DNA of 64,000 nt from Candidatus Thorarchaeota archaeon (GTDB lineage: Archaea > Asgardarchaeota > Thorarchaeia > Thorarchaeales > Thorarchaeaceae): NCBI GenBank assembly GCA_019057475.1, contig DXJO01000008.1, positions 73,943 through 137,942 of the forward strand, given 5' to 3'. The notes under the pieces are model-generated. The model made no database searches. It saw nothing but the letters and a program-made list of their open reading frames with translations, and had not been told where the DNA came from. Shown here one piece after another: positions 30,199-51,196 of the stretch. The translations under genes and the position numbers were made by a program. Numbering within the stretch: position 1 is the stretch's first letter; each line of letters opens with the position of its first letter.

Positions 30199-30277
30199 TC
30201 TCGTCAGTGGCTGTTGCATTTAGTGCTTGCCTTGCGCAAGAGAGAAATCCATGTATTGTCAATGATTCTCGATTGCA

Positions 30278-30934: not shown

Positions 30935-30952
30935 CGTTTCTCGTACTGCATC

Positions 30953-31588: not shown

Positions 31589-31647
31589 CGTGATTCACTC
31601 ACAGGTTTCCCTCGAATCGAGCCCCCGCATAAATATGTCCCGAAAAG

Positions 31648-33261: not shown

Positions 33262-33266
33262 GACTC

Positions 33267-34217: not shown

Positions 34218-34322
34218 GTTCTGACGGTATCTCCGCTCAATAACCTTTTGCGAAGTAGAGCTAGGCGCTATGGATAGGTATCATCGCAAGTACCCATGCA
34301 TTAATCAGACGAATTTCCGACG

Positions 34323-35705
34323 GTGCCATCACTAAAAGGATGGGTCCTCGTGCTGGCGGTAAAAGAGTCATGCAATCCTTCCGAGTGCAACCTGGAGTGC
34401 GTTGAAGCGTGTCAAGGTGTACAGGGAGACGGTGCGCCCCTTACGATATCGAAAGAAACAGGCCATCCAAGCATTCGTTATGGCGGGTGTACGGCATGCC
34501 TGTTGTGCGTGCGAGCATGCCCTCTCAATGCAATTGAAATCGAGGGATCCACTGCCGGTGCTGCTCGCGCAATGAAACGTAGGAACCGCACCAAGCCGAA
34601 GCCAGCCGCCAAACAGGCCTATGAGGTGACTGATGATTTCGCCAGGTTCTCCGAGGCAGATATGATATTTGCCAGGGCATGGAATGATCCAGAATTCAAG
34701 CACTATAAGAGGAGCGAATGGGATGGGGCAAAGGCTGCGATGCAAAGTGGTCTTCCTGGGTATAGCCGAGCCTACTACGAGCTGGCGCGGGCTGGATGGG
34801 AGCTGTACAATCATCGGACATCTATGATGAACCCCTTGGCTGATCTTGAGGGAGATGGCTCGAGTTTTGCAAATGAACGCACATTCGACTCCGACTTGCT
34901 TACGAGGATGATGAAGAAGGCAGCTCATTTCTTTGGAGCTAGTCTTGTTGGGATTGCATCTCTAGACCATCGGTGGTTGTATTCTGCCAGTCGTAGAGGT
35001 GTAGAGTACTCCATACCTGACAGCATAGATCACGCAGTCGTCATGGCAATTGCAATGGATTACGACGCCATAGCAACCTCACCGACATTCATCAGCTCGG
35101 CTGCGACTGCTCTTGGGTACTCCACAATGGCATTCGTTGAAATCGAGCTGGCTGCCTTCATTCGCAGGCTTGGATATCGAGCGATACCCTGCGGGAATGA
35201 TATCGCTCTGAGTGTGCCTTTAGCTATTGATGCAGGTCTCGGACAATACGGACGGCATGGTCTTCTGATTACAAAGGAGTTCGGTTCACGAGTGCGTATT
35301 GCCAAGGTGCTAACGGACATGCCCCTTCTTCCAGATAGTCCTGACTTGGACTTCTACAACTCCGTGACTCGTTTCTGCGAAGTATGTGAGAAATGCGCAG
35401 AGCACTGTCCCAGTCAATCCATCCCTTATGGAAGAGAACGCACTTGGCATGGTGAGTGCAGGTCCAATAACCCCGGTGTCAAGAAGTGGTACGTGGATGT
35501 GGAGTCATGCTATGGTTTCTGGGTGCAGAATGGCGCTGAGTGTTCGAACTGCATCCGAAGCTGTCCTTACGACAAACGCGATGGGCCTGCACTCAGGATT
35601 CTTCTCTGGCTTACGCGTCATATGCCTAGGCTCAACTCCCTGGTTGTGAAATTGGACGATTTGCTAGGCTACGGAAAGCAGCGTCTTCCGAAAGATATGC
35701 TCTAA
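34323..35705 (+). CDS. Reductive dehalogenase-like protein (RdhA/QueG superfamily) with N-terminal ferredoxin-like Cys motifs, no Tat signal
   Basis: The C-terminus has CEVCEKCAEHCP (CxxCxxCxxxCP) and CSNCIRSCP (CxxCxxxCP). The N-terminus has CNPSECNLECVEAC plus CTACLLCVRACP. No RRxFLK twin-arginine leader. Confidence 0.55.
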   Translation: MPSLKGWVLVLAVKESCNPSECNLECVEACQGVQGDGAPLTISKETGHPSIRYGGCTACLLCVRACPLNAIEIEGSTAGAARAMKRRNRTKPKPAAKQAYEVTDDFARFSEADMIFARAWNDPEFKHYKRSEWDGAKAAMQSGLPGYSRAYYELARAGWELYNHRTSMMNPLADLEGDGSSFANERTFDSDLLTRMMKKAAHFFGASLVGIASLDHRWLYSASRRGVEYSIPDSIDHAVVMAIAMDYDAIATSPTFISSAATALGYSTMAFVEIELAAFIRRLGYRAIPCGNDIALSVPLAIDAGLGQYGRHGLLITKEFGSRVRIAKVLTDMPLLPDSPDLDFYNSVTRFCEVCEKCAEHCPSQSIPYGRERTWHGECRSNNPGVKKWYVDVESCYGFWVQNGAECSNCIRSCPYDKRDGPALRILLWLTRHMPRLNSLVVKLDDLLGYGKQRLPKDML

Positions 35706-35706
35706 A

Positions 35707-36015
35707 CTACTTGGTGCTTCTAGAGATTCTTTGGTAAAGGCCCTCAAAGAAATCTCCCTTGCGAATCTTACCCTTGTTGATTGCAAAGAAGTTTGTCTTT
35801 ATGCGATATAGCTTTGGCTTGAGATTGTCGTAATTCCGAATTCCCCTTCCGTCAATGCTATCGTCAAAAATCTTGGTGACGTACTCTGGGAAGTTATCGA
35901 TGTACTGGCATTGATTGAGCTGGATATGGAACAGGGTGCTTCGTAGTATCTCTGCTCGACTAATATTCCGCGTTGCCATTGCTTGGTCCCACCGTATTAT
36001 CGATGGTGCTGCCAA
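35707..36015 (-). CDS. Hypothetical small protein
   Basis: 102-aa ORF in an otherwise empty gap. No motif recognised. Confidence 0.2.
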   Translation of the reverse strand: MAAPSIIRWDQAMATRNISRAEILRSTLFHIQLNQCQYIDNFPEYVTKIFDDSIDGRGIRNYDNLKPKLYRIKTNFFAINKGKIRKGDFFEGLYQRISRSTK

Positions 36016-36107
36016 TTAAGAGTTCTAGTAAGACAAACCGCCTTCGAGCATTGGCATACGGTTATCAGGCACGAATAGTCACCGGTTCGTGGAAGCGTGG
36101 CAGAAAC

Positions 36108-36803
36108 ATGCGGATTGCATCCATCATTGATATCAGTCTTGTAGATGTGCCCAAGATTCCAGTAACGGTGATATTCACAGCAGGATGCAATTTCGACTGC
36201 TCATACTGTCAAAACGCTGAACTCATTCCGCTCTCATCAGGCGAGAGCATGGCGATACCTGATATTGTAGCTCATGCACGCGGTCATCTTGTAGATGGTT
36301 ATTGTGTAACTGGTGGGGAACCCACAATACACAAGGATCTCCCGGAGTTGTTGAAAGCCCTCAAAGAAGACTGCGACGGTCACATCAATCTCAATACGCA
36401 GGGGTCAGTTCCGTCCGTGCTAGAGAGGTCTCTACCCTATATTGACTCGGTCTGGTTTGACATGAAGGCAAGCCCTACTCGATATGTAGAAACCGCAAGA
36501 ACATCTTCCGATCCATGGCCGAGGGTCCAGCAGAGTCTAGAGATGCTCCTAGATTCTGAGGTTCTTTTTTGGCCTCGCACAACGTATGTTGGAAACCTAA
36601 CAACACCTGACGACATAAAGGCGATTCTTGCAAAATTGCATGAACTTGGATTCAGAGGTGAGTATCTAGTTCAGAATTACATCGATTCGGCAGGCACGCG
36701 AGATGAAGAGGTAGCAGCCTTTGAGAAACCGAATCGTGAGGAGATTGAACCGCTGCTTTCTAGCCTTCCCTCTGGAATTTCGATGCGGCTTGAGTGGAGA
36801 TGA
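36108..36803 (+). CDS. Radical SAM activating enzyme (NrdG/QueE-like, COG0602 type)
   Basis: FTAGCNFDCSYCQN (CxxxCxxC) and VTGGEPTIH. The ATG at 36108 is the probable start. Confidence 0.7.
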   Translation: MRIASIIDISLVDVPKIPVTVIFTAGCNFDCSYCQNAELIPLSSGESMAIPDIVAHARGHLVDGYCVTGGEPTIHKDLPELLKALKEDCDGHINLNTQGSVPSVLERSLPYIDSVWFDMKASPTRYVETARTSSDPWPRVQQSLEMLLDSEVLFWPRTTYVGNLTTPDDIKAILAKLHELGFRGEYLVQNYIDSAGTRDEEVAAFEKPNREEIEPLLSSLPSGISMRLEWR

Positions 36804-36954
36804 ATCACATAGAATCGAAGACCAGCCGCTAAGATGGGTGGTCGCTGCGCTCGCACGATTCAGACACAGAAATACGCTTATATACGCCGAAGGCCGTGCT
36901 CAAATTCGACCTCACCTCTTTGGTGGTTGGTCATTACAGGAGTGTCTTTGAAGC

Positions 36955-37692
36955 ATGTTCCCGACACAGTCACTAGGCTACGACCGTGCAATTACAGTAT
37001 TCAGTCCCGAAGGACGCCTATACCAAGTTGAATACGCTACAGAAGCAGTCCGTCACGGGCCGCTTGCAGTTGGTGTAAAGGCTACTGATGGTGTTGTCTT
37101 GGTTGGTGAGAAGCGTTCTCCGCACCCCCTGGTTGATTTGACCACATTGAAGAAACTCCTTCTTATCGACGATCATGTTGGAACGGCAATTGCAGGGCTG
37201 CATGCTGATGCTAGGAAGCTCATTGATCAGGCTAGAGTTCAGGCACAAATCAATAGACTCAGTTATGACGAACCGGTGTCGATACAATCACTAGTTGTTA
37301 ATGTCTGTGACACTAAACAGCTTCATACACAATATGGTGGAGTCCGACCATTCGGAGTGGCACTTCTGGTCGCTGGCGTAGATGACCTCGGCCCCCAGCT
37401 ATTCAGCACTGATCCTTCTGGATCCTACTGGGGTTGGAAGGCAACCGCAATAGGCAAGGATTCGGACGTGGTACGTGAGTTCTTCGCTGAGAAGTACAAA
37501 CCAGACATCAATCTAGATGGTGCACTCAAGTTGGCAATAGAAGGCGTCCTCACGCCTGGCAGCGACAAGACTGTATCTGACCCAGCTGAGAAGGCAAAGA
37601 CCATAGAGATTGGTCGGGTTGACACCACTAAGCGTGAATTCAAGATATTGCCGCAAGATGAGGTCGAGGCCATTCTCGCAGCTTTCGCTTAG
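36955..37692 (+). CDS. psmA: 20S proteasome alpha subunit
   Basis: YDRAITVFSPEGRLYQVEYA and YGGVRPFGVALLVAG closely match archaeal PsmA. Confidence 0.9.
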   Translation: MFPTQSLGYDRAITVFSPEGRLYQVEYATEAVRHGPLAVGVKATDGVVLVGEKRSPHPLVDLTTLKKLLLIDDHVGTAIAGLHADARKLIDQARVQAQINRLSYDEPVSIQSLVVNVCDTKQLHTQYGGVRPFGVALLVAGVDDLGPQLFSTDPSGSYWGWKATAIGKDSDVVREFFAEKYKPDINLDGALKLAIEGVLTPGSDKTVSDPAEKAKTIEIGRVDTTKREFKILPQDEVEAILAAFA

Positions 37693-37724
37693 CTTGACCG
37701 TTCCGCACTCAAGTTTGACAGGAA

Positions 37725-38600
37725 CTAAGTGCCTTTTGATTTCTTCACCAGTAGATCGACAATCATCCCAGCTATATCGAGATTTGTGACCCTTGACAAT
37801 GCACTCCAGGATGGCGAAGCATTGGCTTCTATAACACAAGGGCCATCTTTTGATTCCAGGATGTCGACACCTGTATAGTCGAGCTTCAACACCTCTGCGG
37901 TCTTGATGGCACACTCTGTGTACTCGTCATCGAGTTCCACAGCTTCTGCCTCGGCTCCTCCGTGTATGTTGCTTCGCCACTCCCCCTTTGGCACATTGCG
38001 GTACATTGCAGCCACAAGCTGATTATCTATGACAAATGCTCTAATGTCGCGGTCAGGTTTCTCAATCATTTCTTGAACGTAGAGCACCTGTCCAAGCTGG
38101 TGAATAAATTTCAGTGCACGGTAGGTTAGTTCTTGGTTCTCCGCTCGAATCATGCCCATGCCACGCGCTCCGATTAGAGGTTTGATGATTACATCCCCTA
38201 CCTCCTCGGAGAATGCTGTAGCGGCCTCTAGGTTCTCACTCACATGCGTGCGTGGCACTCTGATGCCCGCCTTGTGCAGGGCAGTAAGAGTGGCATACTT
38301 GTCCTTAGCGCGTCGGAACGAGTAGGCTGGATTCATCACGTAGATTCCGGCATCTTCGAGATGTTCAAGGAGGCTTATTCGGTATGTAATTTGATTGCCG
38401 GTGCCAAACCCAATGGTCCTCACGATGGCACCATCCAGTGTAAGGTCCTCTTCGAGGTGTACGAACCCATGAGGAATCTCAGCTGCAACGTCTAGTAGTC
38501 GAAAGGGTTTCACATCATGGCCTTTGGCTTTCATTGCATCAATCAGTCCTTTCGTAGCCCAGTTGTTGACGTTCTCGTGGTAGCTTATTCCGAACCGCAT
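37725..38600 (-). CDS. ATP-grasp ligase, RimK/LysX family
   Basis: Pre-ATP-grasp and ATP-grasp segments (VIIKPLIGARGMGM). Start taken at MRFGISYH (38600), which leaves a divergent intergenic region before YjeF_N. Confidence 0.65.
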   Translation of the reverse strand: MRFGISYHENVNNWATKGLIDAMKAKGHDVKPFRLLDVAAEIPHGFVHLEEDLTLDGAIVRTIGFGTGNQITYRISLLEHLEDAGIYVMNPAYSFRRAKDKYATLTALHKAGIRVPRTHVSENLEAATAFSEEVGDVIIKPLIGARGMGMIRAENQELTYRALKFIHQLGQVLYVQEMIEKPDRDIRAFVIDNQLVAAMYRNVPKGEWRSNIHGGAEAEAVELDDEYTECAIKTAEVLKLDYTGVDILESKDGPCVIEANASPSWSALSRVTNLDIAGMIVDLLVKKSKGT

Positions 38601-38729
38601 TCGAGCGTGGTCTCCCTTTGTTTCAGATGCACATTGCACTAGTAGCTTGGTCCATAAAAACCTGAATGCTTGCACCACAGGTGTAGCCCATGGAAAAAGC
38701 CTAAGTGAACATGCTGCTATCTGCAATCT

Positions 38730-39509
38730 ATGCCCCTCCCCGGACTCACCAAGGAACAGATGGTTGAGGTCGACCGCATCATGGTGAAAGAGCTCCATGT
38801 TCCCGTTGAATTGATGATGGAGCATGCGGGACTGAATCTAGCCCGGTTGGCCATTCGCCTTAGTGGGGTCAAGCCCATTGAGTATCTAGTTGTGGCGGGT
38901 TCGGGAAATAACGGGGGTGGGGGTCTCGCGGCAGCAAGGCGCTTACAAAACTGGAATCTTTCGGTAGAAGTGTGGCTGCCAAAAGGTGAAGACGCCCTCC
39001 GCTCGATACCTATGGAACAGCTAAACCGGGCAAAGGAAGCAGGCGTAACTATCTATGAAGGCGAACCGAAGGCGAGCAAAGGTCCTGAAGTCTGCATCTT
39101 GGACGCTTACGTTGGATATGGCTATTCTAGGAGGAATGACTCCGTGACTAGCGAAGTCTTCAGTTACTTGGCAGAACACTCCAACGTTATATCGCTGGAT
39201 GCTCCGTCGGGACTGGATGTGACTACGGGAGTCAGCGAGAACGGACTGTCACCAAGAGCCACGCTGACACTGGCGTTCCCAAAGATTGGTCTCCTTCGTG
39301 CCCTTGAGAAAACATCAGATGCGCTCTATGTTGCGGATATCGGTGTTCCATCAAGCATCTACAAAGATCGGCTTGGCATTGCGTGGAGTTCGCCATTTGA
39401 TTTGGTGAGCCTCTCCAAGCTGGACCGAGCATTTGCAGAGGACGCTATCCAACAGGTTGAGATCAGTTACGTAGAGGCAGAAGGAGTCCATTTCTGGGAT
39501 ATCAAATGA
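38730..39509 (+). CDS. YjeF N-terminal domain protein (NAD(P)H-hydrate epimerase-like)
   Basis: LVVAGSGNNGGGGLAAARRL is the signature motif. Confidence 0.75.
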   Translation: MPLPGLTKEQMVEVDRIMVKELHVPVELMMEHAGLNLARLAIRLSGVKPIEYLVVAGSGNNGGGGLAAARRLQNWNLSVEVWLPKGEDALRSIPMEQLNRAKEAGVTIYEGEPKASKGPEVCILDAYVGYGYSRRNDSVTSEVFSYLAEHSNVISLDAPSGLDVTTGVSENGLSPRATLTLAFPKIGLLRALEKTSDALYVADIGVPSSIYKDRLGIAWSSPFDLVSLSKLDRAFAEDAIQQVEISYVEAEGVHFWDIK

Positions 39510-39600
39510 TAAAGAAGTTTTAAGTGGTCCACTGGAGCCGAAGGCAAAACAGCAGAGAAGCGATTCTTGCATTGAACTGGAACGCTTTTGGTGAGCATCC

Positions 39601-40611
39601 TTGATCAACAAGATGACTGAGATATCTGACAAATTGGAGCGGCAGAGAAAGGACGATCCAAAGCTGCTTATCAAGATGCAGGTGGCCGCTCAGGGACAAG
39701 ATCCTCGTTTCTTCATAGTTTCTCAAATCCATCGAAGCACTCAAGATCTGAAGCTTCTGGGTCTTGAACAAGGAGATGCCTTCCATGGCACTCGCGTTTC
39801 AGGCTGTCCGCTCCTCTCACCCAGCAAATCGCCAGTACTGTTTGCTGGACCTGCCGCCTTCAATGGAAATTTTCCCCAGAAAGATGGCGTTGTAATCACG
39901 TTTGATAGAGATGAACCACAAGAACGAATTCGCGAATCACTTGTCAATCTTACAGAACATCCGGACCTTTCTGAGATACCCATCATAGCTCTCAGTGTTG
40001 ATTATGGTCAGGGCCATGCTCAAGCAATAGGTCACTCCTTTAATCGCAATAGAGATGTTGAGGAGATGTTCGTATCGAGGTGTGTTAGACCCGAAAGACT
40101 CGACGAGAGCGTCCTAGTGTTGTTATGCTCAGACTCGCGTGTTCATCCTCCTTTAACTCCCGTCGGAATACCCTACGCGATTCAAACTCTTGGAGCCTAC
40201 GTTTCCAAGTACACTGGTGCAAATGACGAAACTATGCAGCTGAATGATTTCTTCTCAGACTGGCTTTCCACAGACGCTAGTGAAAAACGAATTCTGATAG
40301 TTGAACATGGGGGATTCACCCAGAATGAACCGCCATGTGGTGCAGGGCAGGCATCCCTGAATCCAGACCAGGTGAAAGGAGAGTTTCTGCGCCCTGTGAT
40401 TGAGCTACTCCGCCAAGAAGCACTTCGATTCGAAGATGGCATTCCCAAGACAGTCGAAGATAGAGTTCTTGCAATCGGCCAGGCCACTGAATACAATCTA
40501 CGAAACTACCCTGCGATAGCCAGAGCGCAGGACGAAGGAGTTAGCATGGAATCGCTGTTTCAGATAGTGACAATGGACACTGTTACAGGCAAGCTCCGTG
40601 AGATTGGATAA
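39601..40611 (+). CDS. Hypothetical protein with beta-carbonic-anhydrase-like motifs in C-terminal half
   Basis: CSDSRVHP matches the beta-CA signature C-[SA]-D-S-R-[LIVM]-x-[AP]. A downstream H...C-G lies in LIVEHGGFTQNEPPCGAG. The last 12 codons are duplicated at 43920-43958. Confidence 0.4.
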   Translation: MINKMTEISDKLERQRKDDPKLLIKMQVAAQGQDPRFFIVSQIHRSTQDLKLLGLEQGDAFHGTRVSGCPLLSPSKSPVLFAGPAAFNGNFPQKDGVVITFDRDEPQERIRESLVNLTEHPDLSEIPIIALSVDYGQGHAQAIGHSFNRNRDVEEMFVSRCVRPERLDESVLVLLCSDSRVHPPLTPVGIPYAIQTLGAYVSKYTGANDETMQLNDFFSDWLSTDASEKRILIVEHGGFTQNEPPCGAGQASLNPDQVKGEFLRPVIELLRQEALRFEDGIPKTVEDRVLAIGQATEYNLRNYPAIARAQDEGVSMESLFQIVTMDTVTGKLREIG

Positions 40612-40690
40612 GGGCTTGTTGACATCATCACGCCTTCAAAGGTGACATACATACTATCATACAATTGCAGGTCCAGAATGATACTGGCAT
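40581..40690. repeat. Left copy of ~110-bp imperfect direct repeat flanking a 3.2-kb insertion
   Basis: gttacaggcaagctccgtgagattggataaggg.ttgttgacatcatcacgccttcaa...catacatactatcatacaattgcaggtccagaatga pairs with 43909-44031 at about 90% identity. Confidence 0.65.
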
Positions 40691-40789
40691 TCCCAAAGAT
40701 TGGCCTCCTTCTAAGGTTACTACTTAATAGGAAATCAGATTCCTGAATTTGAATGCGGGAGGTTATTGATAGTGTCAACAAAGGATAAG

Positions 40790-43700
40790 ATGCGCCCACA
40801 ATTTTCACATAATGATGCTGTCAGACTAGCCAAGACGATATATGGTATTGATTGTGCTGCAAGGGAATTGCCAAGTGAACGTGATAGAAACTTTCTGCTC
40901 ATTACTAAAACCAATGAGAAATACGTGATGAAAATTTCCGCAACCTCTGAATCCCGAGATGTCATTGATTGTCAAAATGCCGCGTTGCAGCATATCCAAG
41001 AGGTTGATGAATCAATAGCGATTCCAAGAATAATTCATTCTCTTAATGGAGAATTTGTTCCGCTTATTTCGACCGAAGTGGGACATGAGCATTTCATAAG
41101 ACTATTGACATATCTCCCGGGACGAGTATTCGCGAAAATTAATCCGCATACTATGAAACTGATGGAAGATTTCGGAAAATTCATGGGGTCCCTTTCTAGG
41201 GCATTAGAGAGCTTTTCGCACCCTGCTGCTAATCGCGACTTCTACTGGGATTTGAAAAACTCACCTCAAATGATTGTTGAATATAGAGAATTGATTAGTG
41301 ACAAGAAGAAAAGGGAAATTTCAGACTATTTCTACAATCTATTCGATCAAGAAGTAGTACCCCATATCCGAGAATTAAGGTCAAGTATAGTGCATAATGA
41401 CGCAAACGATTACAATGTGGTCGTTGATACAAATTGGACTAATGATTCGAGAAAACTCGGAATTTTTGATTTTGGTGACATGTTGTTTACTTGCACAATA
41501 TTTGAGCTAGCAATTGCTACTGCGTACGCAATATTAGACCATGATGATCCAGTAATGGCTGCAGCTGCAATGATTAAGGGGTATCACTCAGTATTTCCAC
41601 TAACAGAACTAGAAATGAAAGTTCTATTTCCAGCTATATGTGCAAGATTACTATCTAGTGTTTGTGTATCAGCATACCAGCAGTTTCTGGAACCAGAGAA
41701 TGAATACTTGGCGATAACTGAAACTCCCGCATGGCGGACTCTCAGCAGACTTAGAAAAATGCATCCTAAACACGTTTGGTACATCTTCAGAGATGCATGT
41801 GGATTTCCGCCAAACCCAGAAAACCCGAGAATAGTAAAATGGATAACCGATAATGAAAGTCACTTTGGCAATGTTCTGACTAAAAGCATGGAAGAATACA
41901 AGTCCGTAGTAATTGACCTAAGTGTCGGTAGTCTAGATTTCGAGTATCCTGAGGATGTCGTGGTTTTTAAAAGATTTTCTAGAATAATACAGAATAAGAT
42001 GGACGACCACAAGGCAGAGATTGCTTTTGGTCGATACGATGAAAGTCGTCTTATCTACACCGGTGACCAATATTCAGAGAATGAAGATCTCGTACAGAAT
42101 TCAAGAGTAACCCATCTTGGTATTGATATCTTTTCACCACCTAAAACTCCCATTTTCGCACCTCTAGATGGTATCGTTCATTCACTGAAAAACAATGACA
42201 TTCCATTAGATAATGGACCAACTATTATCCTTGAACATAACCCCACTTCAGATACTAAGTTCTATACACTCTATGGACATCTAAGTCTGGACTCAATTAA
42301 CGGACTAATAATTGGACAGAAAATAAGTAAAGGAGATGAAATTGCGCGCATAGGGGATTACCCTAAGAATGGTGGATGGCCTCCACATTTACATTTTCAA
42401 ATAATCACAGATATGTTGGACGTGGAGGGGAATTACAATGGAGCTTGTGGGGTAAATCAACGTGATGTTTGGCGAAGCATTTGTCCTGATCCAAATTTGA
42501 TTCTAAAGATTCCAGAAGATAAGTTTCCAGACCCTCTCCTAACTAAACAAGAGATATTACAGACTAGACAGGAGTATATTGGACCAAATCTGAGTGTTTC
42601 CTATAAAGAGCCATTGAAGATTGTAAGAGGATACATGCAGTACTTGTATGATGAAGATGGAAAGAGATACCTTGACGCAGTGAATAATGTTCCCCACGTC
42701 GGTCATTCAAATCCAAATGTGGTTAAAGCTCTACAGAAACAAGCAGCTGCACTTTATACAAATACTAGATACTTGCATGATAACCTTGTTAGGTATGCGG
42801 AGAAACTTATTGAAAAAACGCCAGAACCACTTAGTGTCTGTTATTTCGTGAATAGTGGAAGTGAAGCAAACGAACTTGCATTGAGATTAGCTAGAACACA
42901 TACTCAGCGAGATGGAATTATCATTGTGGATGATGCGTATCATGGAAACACCGATACCTTAGTCGATCTTAGTCCATACAAACACAAAGGACCCGGAGGA
43001 CGTGAACCACCCACACATGTAGTCTCAGTTTTCAAAGCAGATCCATTCAGAGGGAAGTTTGGTTCTGATGACTCCAAGGCCGGAGAGAAATACGCTTCTT
43101 ATATCAAAGATTTTGCTATACCAAGGTTGGAAGAAAGCGGTCATCCTGTAGCTGCATTCATTTGCGAACCCGTTATGAGTTGTGCAGGACAAATCGTATT
43201 TCCAAAGGGATACCTAAAGAAAGCCTATGAGCACGTAAGAAATGCGGGAGGCGTGTGCATAGCAGATGAAGTGCAGATTGGATTCGGTAGAGTTGGAAGT
43301 CATTTCTGGGGGTTTGAAACACAAGGAGCCATACCGGATATTGTAACTATGGGTAAACCAATAGGAAACGGACATCCATTAGCAGCTGTTGTTACAACCC
43401 CAGAGATAGCAAAATCATTCGACAATGGAATGGAATTCTTCAGCACTACGGGTGGAAACACTGTTTCATGTGCAGTTGGACTAGCTGTTCTTAATGAGAT
43501 CGAATCAAAGAACTTGCAGGAGAATGCATTCTCTGTTGGAAAACATATGAAAGAAAAACTGCTCGATCTGAAAAAGAAATACCCTCTCATTGGAGATGTA
43601 AGAGGTCTCGGACTGTTTCTTGGTGTTGAACTAGTAAAAGACCAGGAAGAATTGTTTGAACCAGCAGCAGAAGAAGCAACATATATTGTCAATAGGATGA

Positions 43701-43855
43701 AAGAACTTGGAGTATTAATTAGTGTGGATGGATATCTTCGTAATGTCCTCAAGATCAAACCCCCAATCATATTCTCCAATGAGGATGTAGATTATTTTAT
43801 TGAACGTCTGGAAACCGTTCTTAACGAAGATTTTCCGAGCGGTATTATAGAATAA
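40790..43855 (+). CDS. Tri-domain fusion: aminoglycoside/hydroxylysine-kinase-like phosphotransferase (APH) - M23 peptidase - class III aminotransferase (AGXT2-like, possible phospho-lyase)
   Basis: APH-type N-terminus (HNDANDYNVVVD, FDFGD). M23 (HLGIDIF...DGIV...YTLYGHLS...GGWPPHLHFQI). Class-III aminotransferase (DDAYHGNTD, ICEPVMSCAGQI, DEVQIGFGRVGSHFWGFE, TMGKPIGNGHPLAAV with the PLP Lys). Markedly AT-richer than its flanks. Confidence 0.8.
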   Translation: MRPQFSHNDAVRLAKTIYGIDCAARELPSERDRNFLLITKTNEKYVMKISATSESRDVIDCQNAALQHIQEVDESIAIPRIIHSLNGEFVPLISTEVGHEHFIRLLTYLPGRVFAKINPHTMKLMEDFGKFMGSLSRALESFSHPAANRDFYWDLKNSPQMIVEYRELISDKKKREISDYFYNLFDQEVVPHIRELRSSIVHNDANDYNVVVDTNWTNDSRKLGIFDFGDMLFTCTIFELAIATAYAILDHDDPVMAAAAMIKGYHSVFPLTELEMKVLFPAICARLLSSVCVSAYQQFLEPENEYLAITETPAWRTLSRLRKMHPKHVWYIFRDACGFPPNPENPRIVKWITDNESHFGNVLTKSMEEYKSVVIDLSVGSLDFEYPEDVVVFKRFSRIIQNKMDDHKAEIAFGRYDESRLIYTGDQYSENEDLVQNSRVTHLGIDIFSPPKTPIFAPLDGIVHSLKNNDIPLDNGPTIILEHNPTSDTKFYTLYGHLSLDSINGLIIGQKISKGDEIARIGDYPKNGGWPPHLHFQIITDMLDVEGNYNGACGVNQRDVWRSICPDPNLILKIPEDKFPDPLLTKQEILQTRQEYIGPNLSVSYKEPLKIVRGYMQYLYDEDGKRYLDAVNNVPHVGHSNPNVVKALQKQAAALYTNTRYLHDNLVRYAEKLIEKTPEPLSVCYFVNSGSEANELALRLARTHTQRDGIIIVDDAYHGNTDTLVDLSPYKHKGPGGREPPTHVVSVFKADPFRGKFGSDDSKAGEKYASYIKDFAIPRLEESGHPVAAFICEPVMSCAGQIVFPKGYLKKAYEHVRNAGGVCIADEVQIGFGRVGSHFWGFETQGAIPDIVTMGKPIGNGHPLAAVVTTPEIAKSFDNGMEFFSTTGGNTVSCAVGLAVLNEIESKNLQENAFSVGKHMKEKLLDLKKKYPLIGDVRGLGLFLGVELVKDQEELFEPAAEEATYIVNRMKELGVLISVDGYLRNVLKIKPPIIFSNEDVDYFIERLETVLNEDFPSGIIE

Positions 43856-43908
43856 GACGTAATACCAAGTCAATAGTTGAAATCCAAGAATTTGCAGGAT
43901 GCAATGGA

Positions 43909-44031
43909 TACAGTTACAGGCAAGCTCCGTGAGATTGGATAAGGGATTGTTGACATCATCACGCCTTCAAGACGCCTTCGAAGGTGATATACATGCTATC
44001 ATACATTTGCAGGTCCAGAATGAAGGAGTTT
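43909..44031. repeat. Right copy of direct repeat flanking the insertion
   Basis: Matches 40581-40690. It carries an extra internal gacgccttcgaa duplication. Confidence 0.65.
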
Positions 44032-44639
44032 AGTTTGAATATGGGTATCACGGGCACGCCTTCATGAAACTCGATATCCTCCACCATCCAAGTCACAATG
44101 ATTGGCACAAGAGAATAGGACCCGTTGGGTATGGGCTTGAGTTTTCGTGCGAGCCTGTTCATTTGATTCGCTAATTGGGCGGTTCTTTCCTTCTGCTTTT
44201 CCGCAGCGTGCGCAAGTGCCGAGGATTTCCCTGGTCTAATCCCCCACATCTTTGCATCTATGGACACGATAGTCTTTCCTCTCACGCCGACAACATCGAT
44301 TTCCATGCCCTTGATGATGCTGTTACCTCTTCTTCGGAAGCTCTCCACGCAACGGAATTCATTCTCTTCCAAGATTTCCGCAACAAATCCCTCAAAGTCT
44401 TTCCAAGTCAGCAGTTTAACAACCGTTTCGATGGCTGATCCAAGGGCAACCGCCTTGAAGGCGAGTGTGATACGGTTGCGCCTTGATACAATCCACGTGT
44501 CGTCTAATCCCCTGCTAGTCCCCAGGCTTTCAAGAACCCCTACCGTTCTTCTGTCCACAATCTCGAGAGCACTCGAATCCTTCGTATTCTTTAGGAGAAA
44601 CAGAATGCGGTCAAGGATGTTCTCGTCCATCTCACTCAT
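43959..44639 (-). CDS. Hypothetical PD-(D/E)xK (Mrr/restriction-endonuclease-like) protein
   Basis: EIDVVGVRGKTIVSIDAKMW fits D...(D/E)xK. Its C-terminal coding end is part of the duplicated repeat; the fragment ORF 40560..40808 repeats ILDLQ.YDSMY.TFEGV. Confidence 0.4.
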   Translation of the reverse strand: MSEMDENILDRILFLLKNTKDSSALEIVDRRTVGVLESLGTSRGLDDTWIVSRRNRITLAFKAVALGSAIETVVKLLTWKDFEGFVAEILEENEFRCVESFRRRGNSIIKGMEIDVVGVRGKTIVSIDAKMWGIRPGKSSALAHAAEKQKERTAQLANQMNRLARKLKPIPNGSYSLVPIIVTWMVEDIEFHEGVPVIPIFKLNSFILDLQMYDSMYITFEGVLKA

Positions 44640-44689
44640 TCGTTTTTGCGCTCTAGTTTATATCTCCCACTGCTGTGATAATAGTTTGA

Positions 44690-45190
44690 TTGAGTATGTC
44701 TGAATCTTCAGAAGGTTGGGGGCGGGTCCTCAAGGCATTCGATGATTGGATCTCCTACGAAAGCTCAGAGTTTGCTCCATGGACTGCATACTTTTCCCCA
44801 GAGAATCTGCGTGACCTTACTGACAAGGAGCGGATGGGTTGGATGCACTCCATGTACAGTGAGGTGATTCCAGGACGTGTTGAGAGCTGTAAATCGGTCG
44901 CTGTTGCTTTCGAGGACTTTTTGCCATATATGCCCGACCCGGCGTCGATAGAGACCGTGCGGTCAATGATTGACTTGAGCGCAAGAATACAGGATGGCAT
45001 GCTAGGCATGAGTGATGTCATAACTACCATGATGGAGGAGTACAAGGTTGGAGGACTTGATGAAGCCTTTCACTACCTCTCATCTCTCGCTGAAGCTGAA
45101 GAAGACATTCGGCACCACATGACTCTCTATAGTGCGGGATTTAGGAAGCTGAAGAAGTTGGGGCTCACAATGCCTGAGGAAATGACGTAG
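44690..45190 (+). CDS. Hypothetical protein
   Basis: 166-aa ORF with no recognised motif. Confidence 0.3.
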   Translation: MSMSESSEGWGRVLKAFDDWISYESSEFAPWTAYFSPENLRDLTDKERMGWMHSMYSEVIPGRVESCKSVAVAFEDFLPYMPDPASIETVRSMIDLSARIQDGMLGMSDVITTMMEEYKVGGLDEAFHYLSSLAEAEEDIRHHMTLYSAGFRKLKKLGLTMPEEMT

Positions 45191-45329
45191 GTCATGGACC
45201 GGCATGGCGTGATAAAGCATTGATTCAACAAGTAGGCCCGCCGTATTTCAGCTCGAAAGGCTAACAGCACGCCTGACAAACCTTAAGTATTGATAGACGA
45301 GAGGGAATTCGACCCACTAACAAAGTGAG

Positions 45330-45794
45330 GTGATAACACAATGGGTTTTGGAAGTAAAACCACAACCTCGGCCCATCGATGTCGGGTCGCAGAGTCAACA
45401 GGTGAGTGTCAAATTAGCCAACGAGGCGAATGTGTTCTCCAGTAGCCATCAGGTTTCTGAACAGTTCACTCATACTGCTGACAAGCCTACTTTTGAGAGT
45501 CTTGCTGCATCATTCCTACGGTTAGCCGACCTAAGGTTGAGCAGCACTCAGAAGACCGTCTTGAGAATGAGTGCCCAACTCTTGGAGCACCATCGTCTAA
45601 CGGTTACTGGGCTTGCAGATTTGCTATCCCGACGAAGCACTGTTCCATATTCGACTGCGAAATGGAATCTGCGTTCTTTGATGGACTTGGGGCTGCTTGC
45701 TGGGGGCAATGCCCAGTGCAGAGGATTGCAAGCAAGTCTGACCCCCTCTGGGCGGATGTTAGCTGCATATCTCGAAGAATCTGATGTAGACTGA
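45330..45794 (+). CDS. Hypothetical protein, possible winged-helix
   Basis: 154 aa. TVTGLADLLSRRSTVPYSTAKWNLRSLMDLGLL looks like a wHTH. Confidence 0.3.
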   Translation: MITQWVLEVKPQPRPIDVGSQSQQVSVKLANEANVFSSSHQVSEQFTHTADKPTFESLAASFLRLADLRLSSTQKTVLRMSAQLLEHHRLTVTGLADLLSRRSTVPYSTAKWNLRSLMDLGLLAGGNAQCRGLQASLTPSGRMLAAYLEESDVD

Positions 45795-45842
45795 GAAAGA
45801 GGGGACTCCATCGAGTTTCCCCTTTCTCGTTTCTTTTTTTGG
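45793..45842. terminator. Stem-loop plus oligo-T between convergent genes
   Basis: gagaaagagggga / tcccctttctc is an inverted repeat with a 2-nt bulge and a 12-nt loop. It is followed by gtttcttttttt and starts at the stop codon of 45330..45794. Confidence 0.35.
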
Positions 45843-45916
45843 TGTCCGACAGTCCAATGAAGATATCGAGGGACTCCTCGTGCTCTGCCGGTGTTGCATT
45901 GCTTTACACGCCGGCT

Positions 45917-46606
45917 TCACTGCATCTTCTTGCTGAAGAGCTCCCATGCCTTTGGAATGAGAGCCTCCGCATCCTCGTGGCTGATCCCTGATGAGATCAC
46001 GACATCGACGAACTTGCTCTCGCCTTTGTCAAGGGTTCCAAGGTTCCACTGCACTGCGACTGCAACATCCCTTGGTCCCAGCTCGAGGTTGTTCTTCAGG
46101 TCGCGGTAGGTATCTGTCACCTTTAGCTTCAGCGGAGGCGATATCTCCCAACCGGCTGGCTTGGGCTTTGAGGCCAGTTCCACATGGAGTGGCGCTTCAT
46201 CCCAGATCCGCATGACGCCTGTTTCTGGGTCGAATCTAGCCATGTCGTCCCTGTAGCTGGGCGGACCGCCAATATCGAAGTCCATCAGGTTGTAGACCCT
46301 CAGGTCTTCCAGTGGCGAACCGCTTATATTCGTCGTCCGATGGCGCATCAACAGGAATGGCCTGTTGAAGGTCCACAAGGCGATATCGAACATGGCCATT
46401 GGGACAGTCTGACCCTCTGGAGTGTATTCCAGAGCCAGTTCGAACCGTTTCTGCTTGTACTCCCTCCGCTTCACGGAATAGGACTGCTCTTCTGTGGACA
46501 TAGCACAGAAGACCTGTCCGCCGCTTCTGAATGTTGACCAGAAGCCACTTCTGTACCCGGCGGGATTCCGAAGCAGTAGGCGGTCTTTGCCGGTGGGATC
46601 AATCAA
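45917..46606 (-). CDS. Hypothetical protein
   Basis: 229-aa ORF with no recognised motif. Confidence 0.3.
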   Translation of the reverse strand: MIDPTGKDRLLLRNPAGYRSGFWSTFRSGGQVFCAMSTEEQSYSVKRREYKQKRFELALEYTPEGQTVPMAMFDIALWTFNRPFLLMRHRTTNISGSPLEDLRVYNLMDFDIGGPPSYRDDMARFDPETGVMRIWDEAPLHVELASKPKPAGWEISPPLKLKVTDTYRDLKNNLELGPRDVAVAVQWNLGTLDKGESKFVDVVISSGISHEDAEALIPKAWELFSKKMQ

Positions 46607-46862
46607 GCTGAGGCGTTTGATGTAGAAACCTAGGCGACCTTTTCGTCAGCTTGTGCACTCGACATTGTACGCGAGGTCAAGCCTAGGACGTCGGCTGCCA
46701 GTCTCTAGTATCTCAGACATGACCGATCACTTGTTCCTATGCACCATCACTTTTATTCAGGTCTTGATATAAATCTGGTCAGATGTGTGTACATGCTTTG
46801 CGAGGTCGCAAAGTTGATAAAGCGCATTCAGAAACCGAGGCCCGATTAGGTGAGCTTCCCCT

Positions 46863-48098
46863 GTGACCACTCTTACTGTCGACCAGCTCGACAAATGGTA
46901 TCGAAAGCGCTTGGCAACGCAGTCGAAGGACTTCATCAAACGCGCTGAGAAAAGCCATAAGAATGTAAGCCAGACTCTCAAGGATGTTGGGACGATTGCA
47001 GGGGATCTGGAAGACAATGCAAAAGACGATTCTGAAACCATTGGGATTGCCAGCCGATTTGCAATGAAACTGGACGGCATTGTCAAGAGATTCGAAGTTA
47101 AGCAGGATATCACATACGAAAGCACTGAGGCCATGCAAGAGGAGATTCAGCGCTTTATCCAGGAGTTGTGGGGTGCCGGTGCTCGCTGGATTCGCAGGAT
47201 GGATAAGAGGCACAAGAATACAATCAAAATGCTTGACACCTACATGAAGGAGCTTTCTAAGGAGATGAAGGTCCTTGGTAAGTTGCTTTACGAGTTCAGC
47301 TGGGTCAAGGACTTGGAACGCATTGGTGGGCGAATCCAGACATTGAGCGAACTAACCTACAGCGCTGAGGGGTTCGAGGAGCAGATCCGTCAGATTCAGC
47401 TCAAGATTGACGCGGCCACGAAAGAGCATTCAACTGCTGCGCAAGCTTACAATGAATTCACTGAAACATCTAATGTCGCAGAGCTGCTCTCGCTAGACGA
47501 GGAATCGGAGCACATCGCTGCGCTGCTCCGGATGAGGCTCAGCCCTTTGAAAAAACAAGTCAAGAAGTTCATGCAGCGTGATACCGGTGTGAGGGTGTCC
47601 CCTTCCAGTCAGAGAGCATTGGCCAATTACTTCGAGGATCCTCTGACTGCAATAATTGCAGAGCCTGATGGCACTCCTGGCTTAGTTGAGGGTCTAGAAG
47701 GCTTGCAGAAAGCTCTTGACACCGGCAAGTTGAAACTTAAGGACCGGCTAGCACGTCGTGCTTCTGAGGAGATTGAAGCGATAAAGAATGGCTCCATAAG
47801 CAATCTTCAACTACAAGCAAAGGAACTGGACGAGAAGCGTCGAACTTTCGCAGGGTCAGATGTTTACAAGAAAAGCGCCGCCCTCGCAGAGCGTTTGAAC
47901 GAAGCTTCAAGGAACTTGGAGTATCATACGAATGACCTCCTAAAGGTTGGAGCTGACATTAGGAAACAGATAGCTCGAGTTGAAGAATTCAAAACACGCA
48001 TTGAATCCGAGATACTGGAATTCTTTGAAGACACAATCTCAATTAAAATCGATAAGCTAGGTTTGGAGCCATTACTGGCACGTTGCGTCGTTAGCTGA
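46863..48098 (+). CDS. Hypothetical coiled-coil protein
   Basis: 411 aa. Helical heptad-like and charged throughout. GTG start. Confidence 0.4.
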   Translation: MTTLTVDQLDKWYRKRLATQSKDFIKRAEKSHKNVSQTLKDVGTIAGDLEDNAKDDSETIGIASRFAMKLDGIVKRFEVKQDITYESTEAMQEEIQRFIQELWGAGARWIRRMDKRHKNTIKMLDTYMKELSKEMKVLGKLLYEFSWVKDLERIGGRIQTLSELTYSAEGFEEQIRQIQLKIDAATKEHSTAAQAYNEFTETSNVAELLSLDEESEHIAALLRMRLSPLKKQVKKFMQRDTGVRVSPSSQRALANYFEDPLTAIIAEPDGTPGLVEGLEGLQKALDTGKLKLKDRLARRASEEIEAIKNGSISNLQLQAKELDEKRRTFAGSDVYKKSAALAERLNEASRNLEYHTNDLLKVGADIRKQIARVEEFKTRIESEILEFFEDTISIKIDKLGLEPLLARCVVS

Positions 48099-48099
48099 C

Positions 48100-48939: not shown

Positions 48940-49090
48940 ACTTCAGGTGCCCTTTCTCACTCATTCACGGTTCTCAACGATTCCTGATGTCCCCCACAGC
49001 GTTGTTTTACGTTTTCGTAATCTTCTCCCGAAAGCCTAAATACCGGACTCACATCTCAAGCAGCACTCACACGCCCAAGTAGGGGAAATT

Positions 49091-50122: not shown

Positions 50123-50344
50123 GATTCGGCCTTTCTCTGTCCCGTTTGGAGTCTAATGCTTCCAACTTGTCCCAGACAATCGCAATTGCACGTAATTACT
50201 GCATTATCCCGGTTGACCACGCGCATAACTTTATTTCATTGAAAGCACAGATGCGCAATTGAATCTCGCTCGCGACTGTTTGGGTCGTTAACGAGGGTTG
50301 ACCATCTTGGTCATAGTACTACTGGGCTATCTTTAAGCAACGGG

Positions 50345-51172: not shown

Positions 51173-51196
51173 GTAGTACAGTCCAGATTCTGAGTC

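What the first reader, a model, noticed from the sequence alone, without database searches (positions are those of the whole stretch)
40581..44031. 3.2-kb low-GC single-gene insertion bounded by ~110-bp imperfect direct repeats
The same segment, about 110 bp, occurs at 40581-40690 and 43909-44031 at roughly 90% identity. One copy has an extra 12-nt internal duplication. The segment covers the convergent 3' ends of gene 39601..40611 (last codons MDTVTGKLREIG-stop) and of the minus-strand gene 43959..44639. Between the two copies sits one large gene (40790-43855) that is visibly AT-richer than the flanks, which are about 50% GC. This pattern points to a horizontally acquired cassette inserted between two convergent genes, either by target duplication or by att-like site-specific or microhomology recombination. 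No integrase or transposase accompanies it.
Basis: seen in the sequence. Interest (0 to 1): 0.75.

Follow-up and report, generated by a model that had tools for sequence, protein, structure and literature searches.

The report
Foreign gene inserted with 122-bp target duplication
An Asgard archaeon (Thorarchaeota) captured one metabolic gene from a lower-GC relative between two convergent genes, apparently by a single illegitimate recombination event that duplicated 122 bp of the target; ordinary homologous recombination then spread the gene among related lineages, so this is a clean but ordinary case of gene gain.

Summary
R1 (40571-40681) and R2 (43902-44023) match at 105/111 aligned bases with one 11-nt gap, and they are the only repeat in the window at E<=1e-8. 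The gene between them has 39.8% GC against 48.6% for the window, and GC3 of 0.32 against 0.52.

Four related Thorarchaeota haplotypes have the empty site, with genes A and B convergent and 15-16 nt apart. They carry one 122-nt copy of the repeat, so R2 has the ancestral length and R1 lost 11 nt.

The insert is about 3.19 kb: promoter-like leader plus a kinase/M23/phospho-lyase fusion gene (NCBIfam PRK06148). Its nearest non-conspecific relative (73% aa) lies in a 37-40% GC Thorarchaeota contig.

A 30-nt copy of the upstream YjeF_N gene abuts R1. The layout is therefore [Y1-A-R1][Y2-foreign-R2], a tandem-duplication-type junction with 3-nt microhomology. There is no integrase, transposase, tRNA or terminal inverted repeat.

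All six occupied haplotypes share the same junctions where these can be read. The insert's synonymous divergence (0.03-0.13) is about three times lower than that of the flanks (0.17-0.43). Flank trees interleave occupied and empty genomes, so there was one insertion that then spread by homologous recombination.

This is a new member of a known kind, of moderate interest.

The parts
40571..40681 (.). R1, the left copy of the duplicated target (111 nt). It holds the functional 3' end of gene A (to 40611), the spacer, and a dead remnant of the 3' end of gene B. It lost one 11-nt unit relative to the ancestral 122 nt.
   Evidence: empty sites in L004, L007, L119 and L092 hold a single 122-nt copy
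43902..44023 (.). R2, the right copy of the duplicated target (122 nt, ancestral length). It holds a dead remnant of the last 13 codons of gene A (43902-43942), the spacer, and the functional 3' end of gene B (from 43959).
39265..39297 (+). Y1, a segment inside YjeF_N (codes TLAFPKIGLL) that is the source of the Y2 copy. Its first 3 nt (TGA) are the microhomology with the end of R.
40679..40711 (+). Y2, a 30-nt copy of the YjeF_N segment joined to the end of R1 through TGA (junction J1). The ancestral form ...CCAGAATGA|CACTGGCG... is kept in L118 and L120. Over its 30 nt, the ancestral Y2 as reconstructed from the aligned copies is identical to the YjeF_N sequence of L004.
40712..43901 (+). 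Foreign (donor) DNA, about 3.19 kb. It is homologous to the low-GC Thorarchaeota contig L088 from 40713 to 43869 (74% nt). Weak similarity in the last 32 nt suggests the donor DNA runs up to R2.
40712..40771 (+). Leader brought in with the gene. It has a TATA-like TTAATAGG near 40727 and GGAGGT at 40758-40763, and it aligns closely with the corresponding leader of L088 (inferred promoter and ribosome-binding site).
   Evidence: alignment with L088; function inferred
40772..43855 (+). The cargo gene, 1027 aa: APH-type kinase (PF01636) + Peptidase_M23-like (PF01551) + class-III aminotransferase-fold domain (PF00202). It belongs to NCBIfam NF004799/PRK06148. The C-terminal domain is closest to ethanolamine-phosphate phospho-lyase (6tor).
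39601..40611 (+). Gene A (336 aa), a host gene with no Pfam or PDB match; some sources call its homologues carbonic anhydrase. It is a recombination mosaic between lineages.
43959..44639 (-). Gene B (226 aa), a conserved host gene that sources name restriction-endonuclease-like or Holliday-junction-resolvase-like. Its last ~21 codons lie in R2.
38730..39509 (+). YjeF_N-domain gene (NAD(P)HX-epimerase-like), intact here. It is independently deleted or truncated in L003, L118, L091/L092 and L008.

Best explanation
This is a one-off capture of foreign DNA by illegitimate (microhomology-level) recombination. It is not a mobile element.

A ~3.19-kb fragment from a lower-GC Thorarchaeote carried one gene with its own leader. 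It was joined into the chromosome at the convergent 3' ends of host genes A and B.

The product has the form [Y1 - YjeF_N 3' end - A - R1] [Y2 - foreign DNA - R2] - rest of B. The junction R1|Y2 joins two host sequences that lie 1.4 kb apart in direct orientation and share only TGA. That is the signature of a tandem-duplication or template-switch junction.

The 122-bp R repeats and the 30-nt Y repeats are therefore the two ends of a 1.4-kb duplicated host unit. The interior of the second copy is occupied by the foreign fragment.

Whether this arose in one complex template-switching or end-joining event, or as a tandem duplication followed by replacement, is inferred and not resolved.

Because the target was duplicated, both A and B kept intact 3' ends, so the insertion cost nothing.

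The cassette then spread among Thorarchaeota lineages that differ by 7-12% in nucleotide sequence. It spread by ordinary homologous recombination in the flanking genes, as a gene-specific spread in a recombining population.

Since then it has begun to decay in places:
- an 11-nt slippage loss in R1 (window, L003);
- a Y1xY2 deletion that removed A (L008);
- a 125-nt deletion inside the gene (L120).

The cargo probably encodes a kinase plus phospho-lyase for breakdown of an amino alcohol. This is inferred from homology.
For: Insertion, not deletion:
- Empty sites with one 122-nt R and A/B 15-16 nt apart occur in L004/L005/L006, L007, L119 and L091/L092.
- In relatives at about 50% identity, A and B are adjacent wherever A is present.

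Foreign origin:
- The gene is 39.8% GC and GC3 0.32, against flanks of 47-50% in window, L003, L008 and L009. In 11 other Asgard loci the homologue's GC tracks its flanks within 0-4 points.
- The nearest relative, L088 (73% aa, 74% nt), lies in a contig whose flanks are 37% GC. Homology starts exactly after Y2 and includes the leader.

Illegitimate junctions:
- J1 is ...AGAATGA|CACTGG... with TGA shared.
- The Y2|donor junction may share ~TTC, though the breakpoint cannot be placed exactly at 74% identity to L088.
- There are no terminal inverted repeats, no tRNA, and no integrase or transposase.
- Other deletions at this locus also show no-homology or filler junctions.

Single event:
- The left junctions (J1 and Y2|donor) are identical in window, L003, L118 and L120, the four haplotypes where they can be read. 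L008 keeps the same Y|donor join.
- The donor/R2 junction was aligned and is identical in window, L003, L008 and L009.

Spread by homologous recombination:
- dS of the cargo is 0.03-0.13, against A 0.25-0.32, B 0.17-0.39 and p164 0.23-0.43, with equal dN/dS. Fisher p is 6e-11 to 1e-7.
- In the A tree, L120(occupied) groups with L007/L119(empty) at 99% and L118(occupied) with L092(empty) at 97%.
- L118 and L120 are near-identical from window ~40181 rightwards and 11-19% divergent to the left of it, so a breakpoint lies inside A.

L008 is derived: it is nested in a 100%-supported clade with window and L003 in the cargo tree rooted with L088.
Against: - A 122-bp target duplication is also what single-crossover integration of a circle carrying R would give. 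The data cannot exclude that path.
- The donor is known only through a 73%-identical relative, so the exact donor breakpoints and their microhomologies are uncertain.
- The order of events (duplication first, replacement first, or all at once) is not resolved.
- All sequences are metagenome assemblies. Strain-chimeric contigs could blur the mosaic patterns, though not the consistent three-fold dS contrast seen in six assemblies.
- No repair or replication pathway of Thorarchaeota has been studied experimentally, so the enzymology is inferred.
Confidence: 0.7

Rival explanations
1. Campbell-type integration. A simple replacement allele (YjeF_N fused at Y to the foreign DNA, then R and B, as in L008) formed first. 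A fragment running from Y to the end of R was circularised by end joining at TGA. The circle integrated by a single homologous crossover at R into a wild-type chromosome, which duplicated R.
For: Direct repeats equal to a shared homologous segment are the classic product of single-crossover integration. An allele with exactly the predicted precursor structure exists (L008). The model explains Y2 without any templated filler.
Against: L008 is nested within a 100%-supported clade of window-like haplotypes in the rooted cargo tree, and the other clade (L118/L120) is also window-like. L008 therefore looks derived, by Y1xY2 deletion, rather than ancestral. The model needs three separate steps. It still requires the same illegitimate junctions.
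Confidence: 0.17
2. Site-specific or transpositional insertion by an enzyme acting in trans, with R as an att-like site or a very long target-site duplication.
For: Direct repeats bound the insert precisely. A MITE-like element with an 8-bp duplication shows that transposition is active in these genomes.
Against: No integrase or transposase appears in the annotations covering window 28730-54642. There is no tRNA and no terminal inverted repeats. A 122-bp duplication is far outside known transposon ranges. The left junction carries a 30-nt host-gene fragment. No other cargo was seen at this site in about 20 relatives. All copies trace to one event. Known Asgard elements use tRNA sites or short att motifs with tyrosine integrases (PMC8813620, PMC11529989).
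Confidence: 0.04
3. The gene is ancestral at this site and the 'empty' genomes lost it by R1xR2 recombination. Low divergence of the gene reflects constraint.
For: R1xR2 recombination would regenerate a clean empty site. The locus loses genes often.
Against: GC and GC3 are foreign. The cargo's synonymous divergence is three-fold lower than the flanks at the same dN/dS. The cargo tree and the flank trees are incongruent. Distant Thorarchaeota keep their homologue at a different locus, next to AsnC and glutamine synthetase genes. A duplicated target implies an insertion at some time.
Confidence: 0.03
4. Assembly artefact: a chimeric metagenome contig joined through the repeat.
For: Two contigs of the same population break near here. 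L001 ends inside R2 and L002 ends in gene B.
Against: The same architecture occurs in the window and in three independent assemblies of diverged strains (L003, L118, L120). L002 also shows it but is 100% identical to the window, so it may not be independent. R1 and R2 differ within each genome. An artefact would need two chimeric joins each time.
Confidence: 0.01

Closest known systems
Illegitimate-recombination capture of foreign DNA with tandem-duplication or template-switch junctions (microhomology-mediated end joining; FoSTeS/MMBIR-type complex rearrangements; my own knowledge of these models)
   Same: Junctions have 0-3 nt of microhomology. A short templated piece of nearby host sequence (30 nt from 1.4 kb upstream) sits at a breakpoint. 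The sequence where the event re-enters the original template is duplicated. No dedicated recombinase is present.
   Different: Those models were defined in bacteria, yeast and human. No such event has been documented mechanistically in Asgard archaea. Here the inserted material is foreign DNA rather than another part of the same genome. The pathway is inferred from the scar only.
Flexible genomic islets spread by homologous recombination in flanks (e.g. replacement and additive flexible islands in aquatic prokaryotes, PMC4033161, found; only its abstract was read)
   Same: The locus is hypervariable between conserved genes (RimK-like and B). A young, low-diversity insert sits within old, high-diversity flanks. 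Recombination breakpoints lie in the flanking genes, and flank and cargo trees disagree.
   Different: The insert is a single gene. The insertion scar is still fully readable (122-bp and 30-nt repeats). The host is an Asgard archaeon.
Campbell-type single-crossover integration of circular DNA
   Same: The insert is bounded by direct repeats that equal the chromosomal target sequence.
   Different: No replicon or integrase genes are present and no circular form has been observed. The phylogeny makes the putative precursor allele look derived.
Integrated mobile elements of Asgard archaea (aloposons, tyrosine-integrase elements; PMC8813620, PMC11529989)
   Same: They are strain-variable insertions in Asgard genomes that carry genes of foreign origin.
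   Different: Those elements are 8-44 kb or larger, encode integrases or giant proteins, and target tRNA genes or an 11-bp motif. This insert is 3.2 kb with one metabolic gene, no mobility gene and a 122-bp duplication.
PRK06148 / NF004799 fusion proteins (APH kinase + M23-like + class-III aminotransferase-fold phospho-lyase)
   Same: There is a full-length match above the curated cut-off. The C-terminal domain matches ethanolamine-phosphate phospho-lyase at E = 4e-140.
   Different: The substrate is unknown and NCBIfam itself names the family 'hypothetical protein'.

Membership tests
Transposon / insertion sequence | Transposase gene, or terminal inverted repeats recognised in trans | tested here: not met
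   Pfam of the cargo and neighbours shows no transposase. No inverted repeat pairs the two insert ends.
Transposon / insertion sequence | Short target-site duplication of fixed length (about 2-15 bp) and multiple copies | tested here: not met
   The duplication is 122 bp. The insert is single-copy in the window, and all copies in relatives sit at the same site with the same junctions.
Integrase-mediated integrative element (att sites) | Tyrosine or serine recombinase encoded in or next to the element | tested here: not met
   None appears in the precomputed annotations covering window 28730-54642. The insert holds one metabolic gene.
Integrase-mediated integrative element (att sites) | Recurrent use of the same att site, often a tRNA gene, by different cargo | tested here: not met
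   There is no tRNA in the window. About 20 relatives have nothing, or only this cassette, between A and B.
Integrase-mediated integrative element (att sites) | Clean att junctions without extra host sequence | tested here: not met
   A 30-nt copy of YjeF_N lies between R1 and the foreign DNA.
Campbell-type homologous integration of a circle | Direct repeats equal to the homologous segment shared by circle and chromosome | tested here: met
   R1 and R2 each equal the single 122-nt empty-site sequence.
Campbell-type homologous integration of a circle | Existence of the circular or precursor form carrying the homologous segment | tested here: inconclusive
   An L008-type allele exists but is phylogenetically nested among window-type alleles. 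Circles are not testable without reads.
Tandem-duplication / template-switch (microhomology) rearrangement | Novel junction joining two host sequences in direct orientation with only a few bases of homology | tested here: met
   J1 joins the end of R to YjeF_N position 39268, with TGA shared.
Tandem-duplication / template-switch (microhomology) rearrangement | Formation during replication or repair (enzymology) | not testable with these tools
   Only the scar is available.
Homology-facilitated illegitimate recombination | One end of the incoming DNA anchored by real homology to the recipient | tested here: inconclusive
   No similarity was found between the flanks of the nearest donor relative L088 and the host locus. 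The true donor is unknown.
Horizontally transferred gene | Composition foreign to the host and native to a candidate donor lineage | tested here: met
   The gene is 40% GC against flanks of 47-50% in four genomes. L088 has the gene at 39.7% and flanks at 37.3%. In 11 other Asgard loci, gene GC is close to flank GC.
Horizontally transferred gene | Empty site in close relatives | tested here: met
   L004/L005/L006, L007, L119, L091/L092.
Gene spread by homologous recombination in a population | Insert younger than flanks, incongruent trees, breakpoints in flanks | tested here: met
NCBIfam NF004799 (PRK06148) | Full-length score above the curated cut-off | tested here: met
   1233 bits against a cut-off of 1128, covering residues 1-1019.

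The most novel reading that the evidence does not exclude
The scar records foreign-DNA capture by replication template switching (MMBIR-like) in an Asgard archaeon. Alternatively or additionally, the 122-bp repeats turn the gene into an integrase-free cassette. Such a cassette could loop out by R1xR2 recombination and re-enter empty sites of related lineages by a single crossover at R, a recombination-dependent way of moving single genes. A further speculation is that the conserved nuclease-like gene B helps make the interval at its 3' end a break-prone hotspot.
Probability: 0.1. Interest if true: 0.6.

Novelty: new member of a known kind. Interest (0 to 1): 0.38.

Why it matters
It is an unusually legible record of how an uncultured Asgard archaeon gains a gene. 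Six things can all be read from sequence:
- the donor lineage;
- both breakpoints;
- the duplicated target;
- the empty site;
- the later spread by homologous recombination across lineages 7-12% apart;
- the first steps of decay.

It shows that Thorarchaeota populations exchange DNA by homologous recombination often enough to uncouple a new gene from its flanks. It also shows that new genes can enter without any mobile-element machinery. It does not reveal a new kind of system.

Tried and rejected
- **Exact look-up of the 1021-aa product.** Nothing on record, because the called gene starts at GTG 40772.
- **Nine-nucleotide microhomology at R1|Y2.** The 39-nt blast match suggested it. Alignment of all haplotypes shows only TGA is shared.
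- **A separate 32-nt filler before R2 (43870-43901).** Rejected as unnecessary. The stretch shows weak residual similarity to L088 downstream DNA and is probably donor sequence.
- **R1 and R2 derived from different diverged alleles.** This rested on synonymous-looking differences. With more haplotypes, the differences fit drift and recombination after one duplication.
- **Homology between the 164-aa neighbour of the gene in L088 and the 164-aa gene next to B.** None found.
- **Rfam scan of the window.** No hit.
- **PDB sequence searches for A and B.** Nothing significant.
- **NCBIfam for A, B and p164.** Nothing.
- **Literature searches** for archaeal illegitimate recombination and for the kinase/phospho-lyase fusion gave no directly relevant paper.
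- **Not used:** structure prediction and the representative-protein search, because the cargo's family assignment was already clear.
Full report
**1. The observation**

The window holds a direct repeat, R1 at 40571-40681 and R2 at 43902-44023. The two copies match at 105 of 111 aligned bases with a single 11-nt gap. It is the only repeat in the 64-kb window at blastn E<=1e-8 (E = 5e-36).

The repeat spans three pieces:
- the last 13 codons and stop of gene A (39601..40611, +);
- a short spacer;
- the last ~21 codons of gene B (43959..44639, -).

The gene between the copies is 39.8% GC against 48.6% for the window. It is the lowest of all 3066-bp windows (sd 2.0%). Its GC3 is 0.321 against 0.523+-0.057 for 41 ORFs (z = -4.3).

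Otherwise the description stands.

**2. Organism and genes**

Window 28730-44312 is identical to a JGI metagenome contig (L002). Window 43916-54642 is 99.95% identical to a Logan contig (L001).

Homologues of A and B come almost only from Candidatus Thorarchaeota MAGs. The window therefore belongs to an Asgard archaeon.

The central gene carries APH kinase, Peptidase_M23 and class-III aminotransferase domains.
- It matches NCBIfam NF004799/PRK06148 full-length, above the curated cut-off.
- Its C-terminal domain is closest to ethanolamine-phosphate phospho-lyase (6tor, E = 4e-140).
- I read it as a kinase plus phospho-lyase for an amino alcohol. This is an inference from homology.
- The likely start is GTG 40772 (1027 aa). 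That matches the JGI gene call and the ATG of the nearest relative, and GGAGGT lies 8 nt upstream.

A and B have no Pfam, NCBIfam or PDB match.

**3. Empty and occupied sites**

| Haplotype | State | Notes |
|---|---|---|
| L004/L005/L006 (one lineage) | empty | A and B convergent |
| L007 | empty | A and B convergent |
| L119 | empty | A and B convergent |
| L091/L092 | empty | A interrupted by a MITE-like element |
| window | occupied | window-type layout |
| L003 | occupied | window-type layout |
| L118 | occupied | window-type layout |
| L120 | occupied | window-type layout |
| L009 | occupied | contig starts inside the gene |
| L008 | occupied | variant form, gene A absent |

The empty haplotypes are 87-93% identical to the window in nucleotide sequence. 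In the empty sites whose gene calls were listed, A and B lie 15-16 nt apart.

Each empty site holds one 122-nt sequence. It aligns without gaps to R2 and with an 11-nt gap to R1. R1 of L118 and L120 is also 122 nt.

So the event duplicated 122 bp of target. Later, R1 lost one unit of an imperfect 11-nt tandem (ACGCCTTCAAG/ACGCCTTCGAAG) in the window/L003 branch.

**4. Anatomy of the insert**

Directly after R1 lies a 30-nt copy (Y2, 40682-40711) of a segment of the upstream YjeF_N gene (Y1, 39268-39297). It is joined through a shared TGA.
- The ancestral junction ...CCAGAATGA|CACTGGCG... is preserved in L118 and L120.
- Over its 30 nt, the ancestral Y2 (reconstructed from the aligned copies) equals the YjeF_N sequence of L004.

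Homology to the nearest non-conspecific relative begins immediately after Y2, at 40713. That relative is L088, a Thorarchaeota contig (73% aa, 74% nt).
- The homology includes about 60 nt of leader with a TATA-like box and a Shine-Dalgarno sequence.
- It runs to 14 nt past the stop. Weak similarity continues to R2.

The layout is therefore R1 | Y2 | ~3.19 kb of foreign DNA | R2. Equivalently it is [Y1-YjeF_N 3' end-A-R1][Y2-foreign-R2].

The junction R1|Y2 joins two host sequences 1.4 kb apart in direct orientation. This is what a tandem-duplication or template-switch junction looks like. The R and Y repeats are the two ends of that duplicated unit.

**5. Foreign origin**

L088 has the gene at 39.7% GC within flanks of 37.3% GC. 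In 11 other Asgard loci the homologue's GC is within 0-4 points of its flanks. In window, L003, L008 and L009 the gene is 7-9 points below its flanks.

The next relatives (58-61% aa) are also Thorarchaeota, where the gene sits next to AsnC-type regulator and glutamine synthetase genes. The donor was thus a lower-GC Thorarchaeote.

**6. No mobility machinery**

- The window has no tRNA.
- No inverted repeats pair the insert ends.
- The precomputed Pfam annotations of the genes called on L001 and L002, which together span window 28730-54642, show no integrase or transposase.
- The neighbouring genes without annotation are syntenic in empty-site relatives, so they are host genes.
- Known Asgard integrated elements use tRNA genes or an 11-bp att motif with tyrosine integrases and are much larger (PMC8813620, PMC11529989).
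- A transposon of these genomes makes an 8-bp duplication, not 122 bp. It is a ~340-nt MITE-like element present at window 8972-9253 and inserted in gene A of L091/L092.

**7. One event, then spread by homologous recombination**

The left junctions (R1|Y2 and Y2|donor) are identical in window, L003, L118 and L120, the four haplotypes where they can be read. L008 keeps the same Y|donor join. The donor|R2 junction was aligned in window, L003, L008 and L009 and is identical there.

Yet synonymous divergence differs sharply between cargo and flanks, at the same dN/dS of about 0.16. Fisher p was 6e-11, 4e-12 and 1e-7 for three pairs.

| Gene | dS among occupied genomes |
|---|---|
| Cargo | 0.03-0.13 |
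| A | 0.25-0.32 |
| B | 0.17-0.39 |
| 164-aa gene (p164) | 0.23-0.43 |

Flank trees interleave occupied and empty genomes.
- In the A tree, L120 groups with empty L007/L119 (99%).
- In the same tree, L118 groups with empty L092 (97%), although the cargoes of L118 and L120 differ by dS of only 0.027.
- The B+p164 tree gives the same picture with 71-88% support.

L118 and L120 are nearly identical from window ~40181 rightwards and 11-19% divergent to the left. That is a recombination breakpoint inside A. Gene A is a mosaic in other pairs too.

The cassette is therefore younger than the lineages that carry it, and it moved between them through crossovers in the flanking genes. This needs no property of R, which counts against a special R-mediated mobility.

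**8. The L008 allele**

In L008, YjeF_N is fused at Y directly to the foreign DNA. Gene A and R1 are absent. This could be the precursor (a simple replacement) or a derivative (deletion between Y1 and Y2).

In the cargo tree rooted with L088, L008 sits in a 100%-supported clade with window and L003. The sister clade L118/L120 is also window-type. Parsimony makes L008 a derivative.

**9. A hotspot**

Across Thorarchaeota, the interval between a RimK-like gene and B holds varying gene sets:

| Genes between RimK and B | Haplotypes |
|---|---|
| YjeF_N + A | L004, L007 |
| A only | L093, L094, L096 |
| YjeF_N only | L095, L101, L103 |
| nothing | L097, L099 |
| YjeF_N + A + cargo | window |

Within the close group, YjeF_N was hit by independent events:
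- deleted in L003, with a ~12-nt filler at the junction;
- deleted in L118;
- deleted in L091/L092;
- truncated in L008.

Filler and no-homology junctions at these deletions show that end-joining-type events recur here.

**10. Mechanism**

*Shown:*
- a single insertion of foreign DNA;
- a 122-bp target duplication;
- a 30-nt host-derived segment at the left junction;
- about 3 nt of microhomology at the left junction;
- no recombinase;
- later spread by homologous recombination.

*Inferred:* the event was illegitimate recombination of the tandem-duplication or template-switch type. Two forms are possible.
- One complex event: leave the template at the end of R, copy 30 nt of YjeF_N, copy the foreign fragment, then re-enter 122 nt upstream.
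- A 1.4-kb tandem duplication whose redundant second copy was then replaced.

The main rival is single-crossover integration of a circle that already carried R and Y2. It predicts the same scar but is less favoured by the rooted tree. I put the illegitimate-capture reading at about 0.7, the Campbell variant at about 0.17, and everything else below 0.1.

**11. Comparison, novelty and verdict**

The thing works like a horizontally acquired islet in a flexible locus that spreads by homologous recombination. It entered like the microhomology and template-switch rearrangements described in other organisms.

It fails the tested defining features of transposons and integrase-borne elements. It meets those of HGT, of recombination-driven spread, and of the PRK06148 protein family.

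It is a new, well-resolved example of known processes in an Asgard archaeon. It is not a new kind of element. I score it 0.38.

Noticed in passing
window 8972-9253 (minus strand); L091 (reverse complement) 2055-2393: A ~340-nt MITE-like element. The window copy is 90-96% identical to an insertion that interrupts gene A in L091/L092 at window-equivalent 40346-40353, with an 8-bp target duplication. It has no Rfam match and no obvious terminal inverted repeats.
   Followed up: partly
window 38730-39509 (YjeF_N) and relatives L003, L118, L091/L092, L008: The YjeF_N gene was hit by four independent events in close relatives. Window 38675-39312 is missing in L003 (with a ~12-nt filler at the junction), 38736-39487 in L118, and 38841-39429 in L091/L092. 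L008 has a C-terminal truncation. The gene appears dispensable in this group.
   Followed up: partly
window 37725-44639 and loci L093-L103: The interval between the RimK-like gene and gene B is hypervariable across Thorarchaeota, holding 0-3 genes. The conserved nuclease-like gene B always borders it. Why this interval is so plastic is unexplained.
   Followed up: partly
L120 4293/4294 (window-equivalent 43477-43601): The cargo gene of L120 lacks 125 nt and is split into 892-aa and 67-aa ORFs. Either the acquired gene is already decaying in one lineage, or this is an assembly error.
   Followed up: no
window 43916 and 44312: Two independent assemblies of the same population end here: Logan contig L001 inside R2, and JGI contig L002 inside gene B. 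This suggests strain variation or repeat-induced breaks at the locus.
   Followed up: no
window 39601-40570: Gene A is a fine-scale recombination mosaic between lineages. For example, window against L120 shows 2/100 mismatches at 39681-39780 next to 12-17/100 in adjacent blocks.
   Followed up: partly
window ~30950-34200: A cluster of MtrH-like methyltransferase, RACo-type corrinoid activator and B12-binding protein genes, taken from the L002 annotation. It suggests corrinoid-dependent methyl transfer in this Thorarchaeote.
   Followed up: no
window 3011-8566: A single 1851-aa ORF lies just upstream of the MITE-like element. It was not examined.
   Followed up: no
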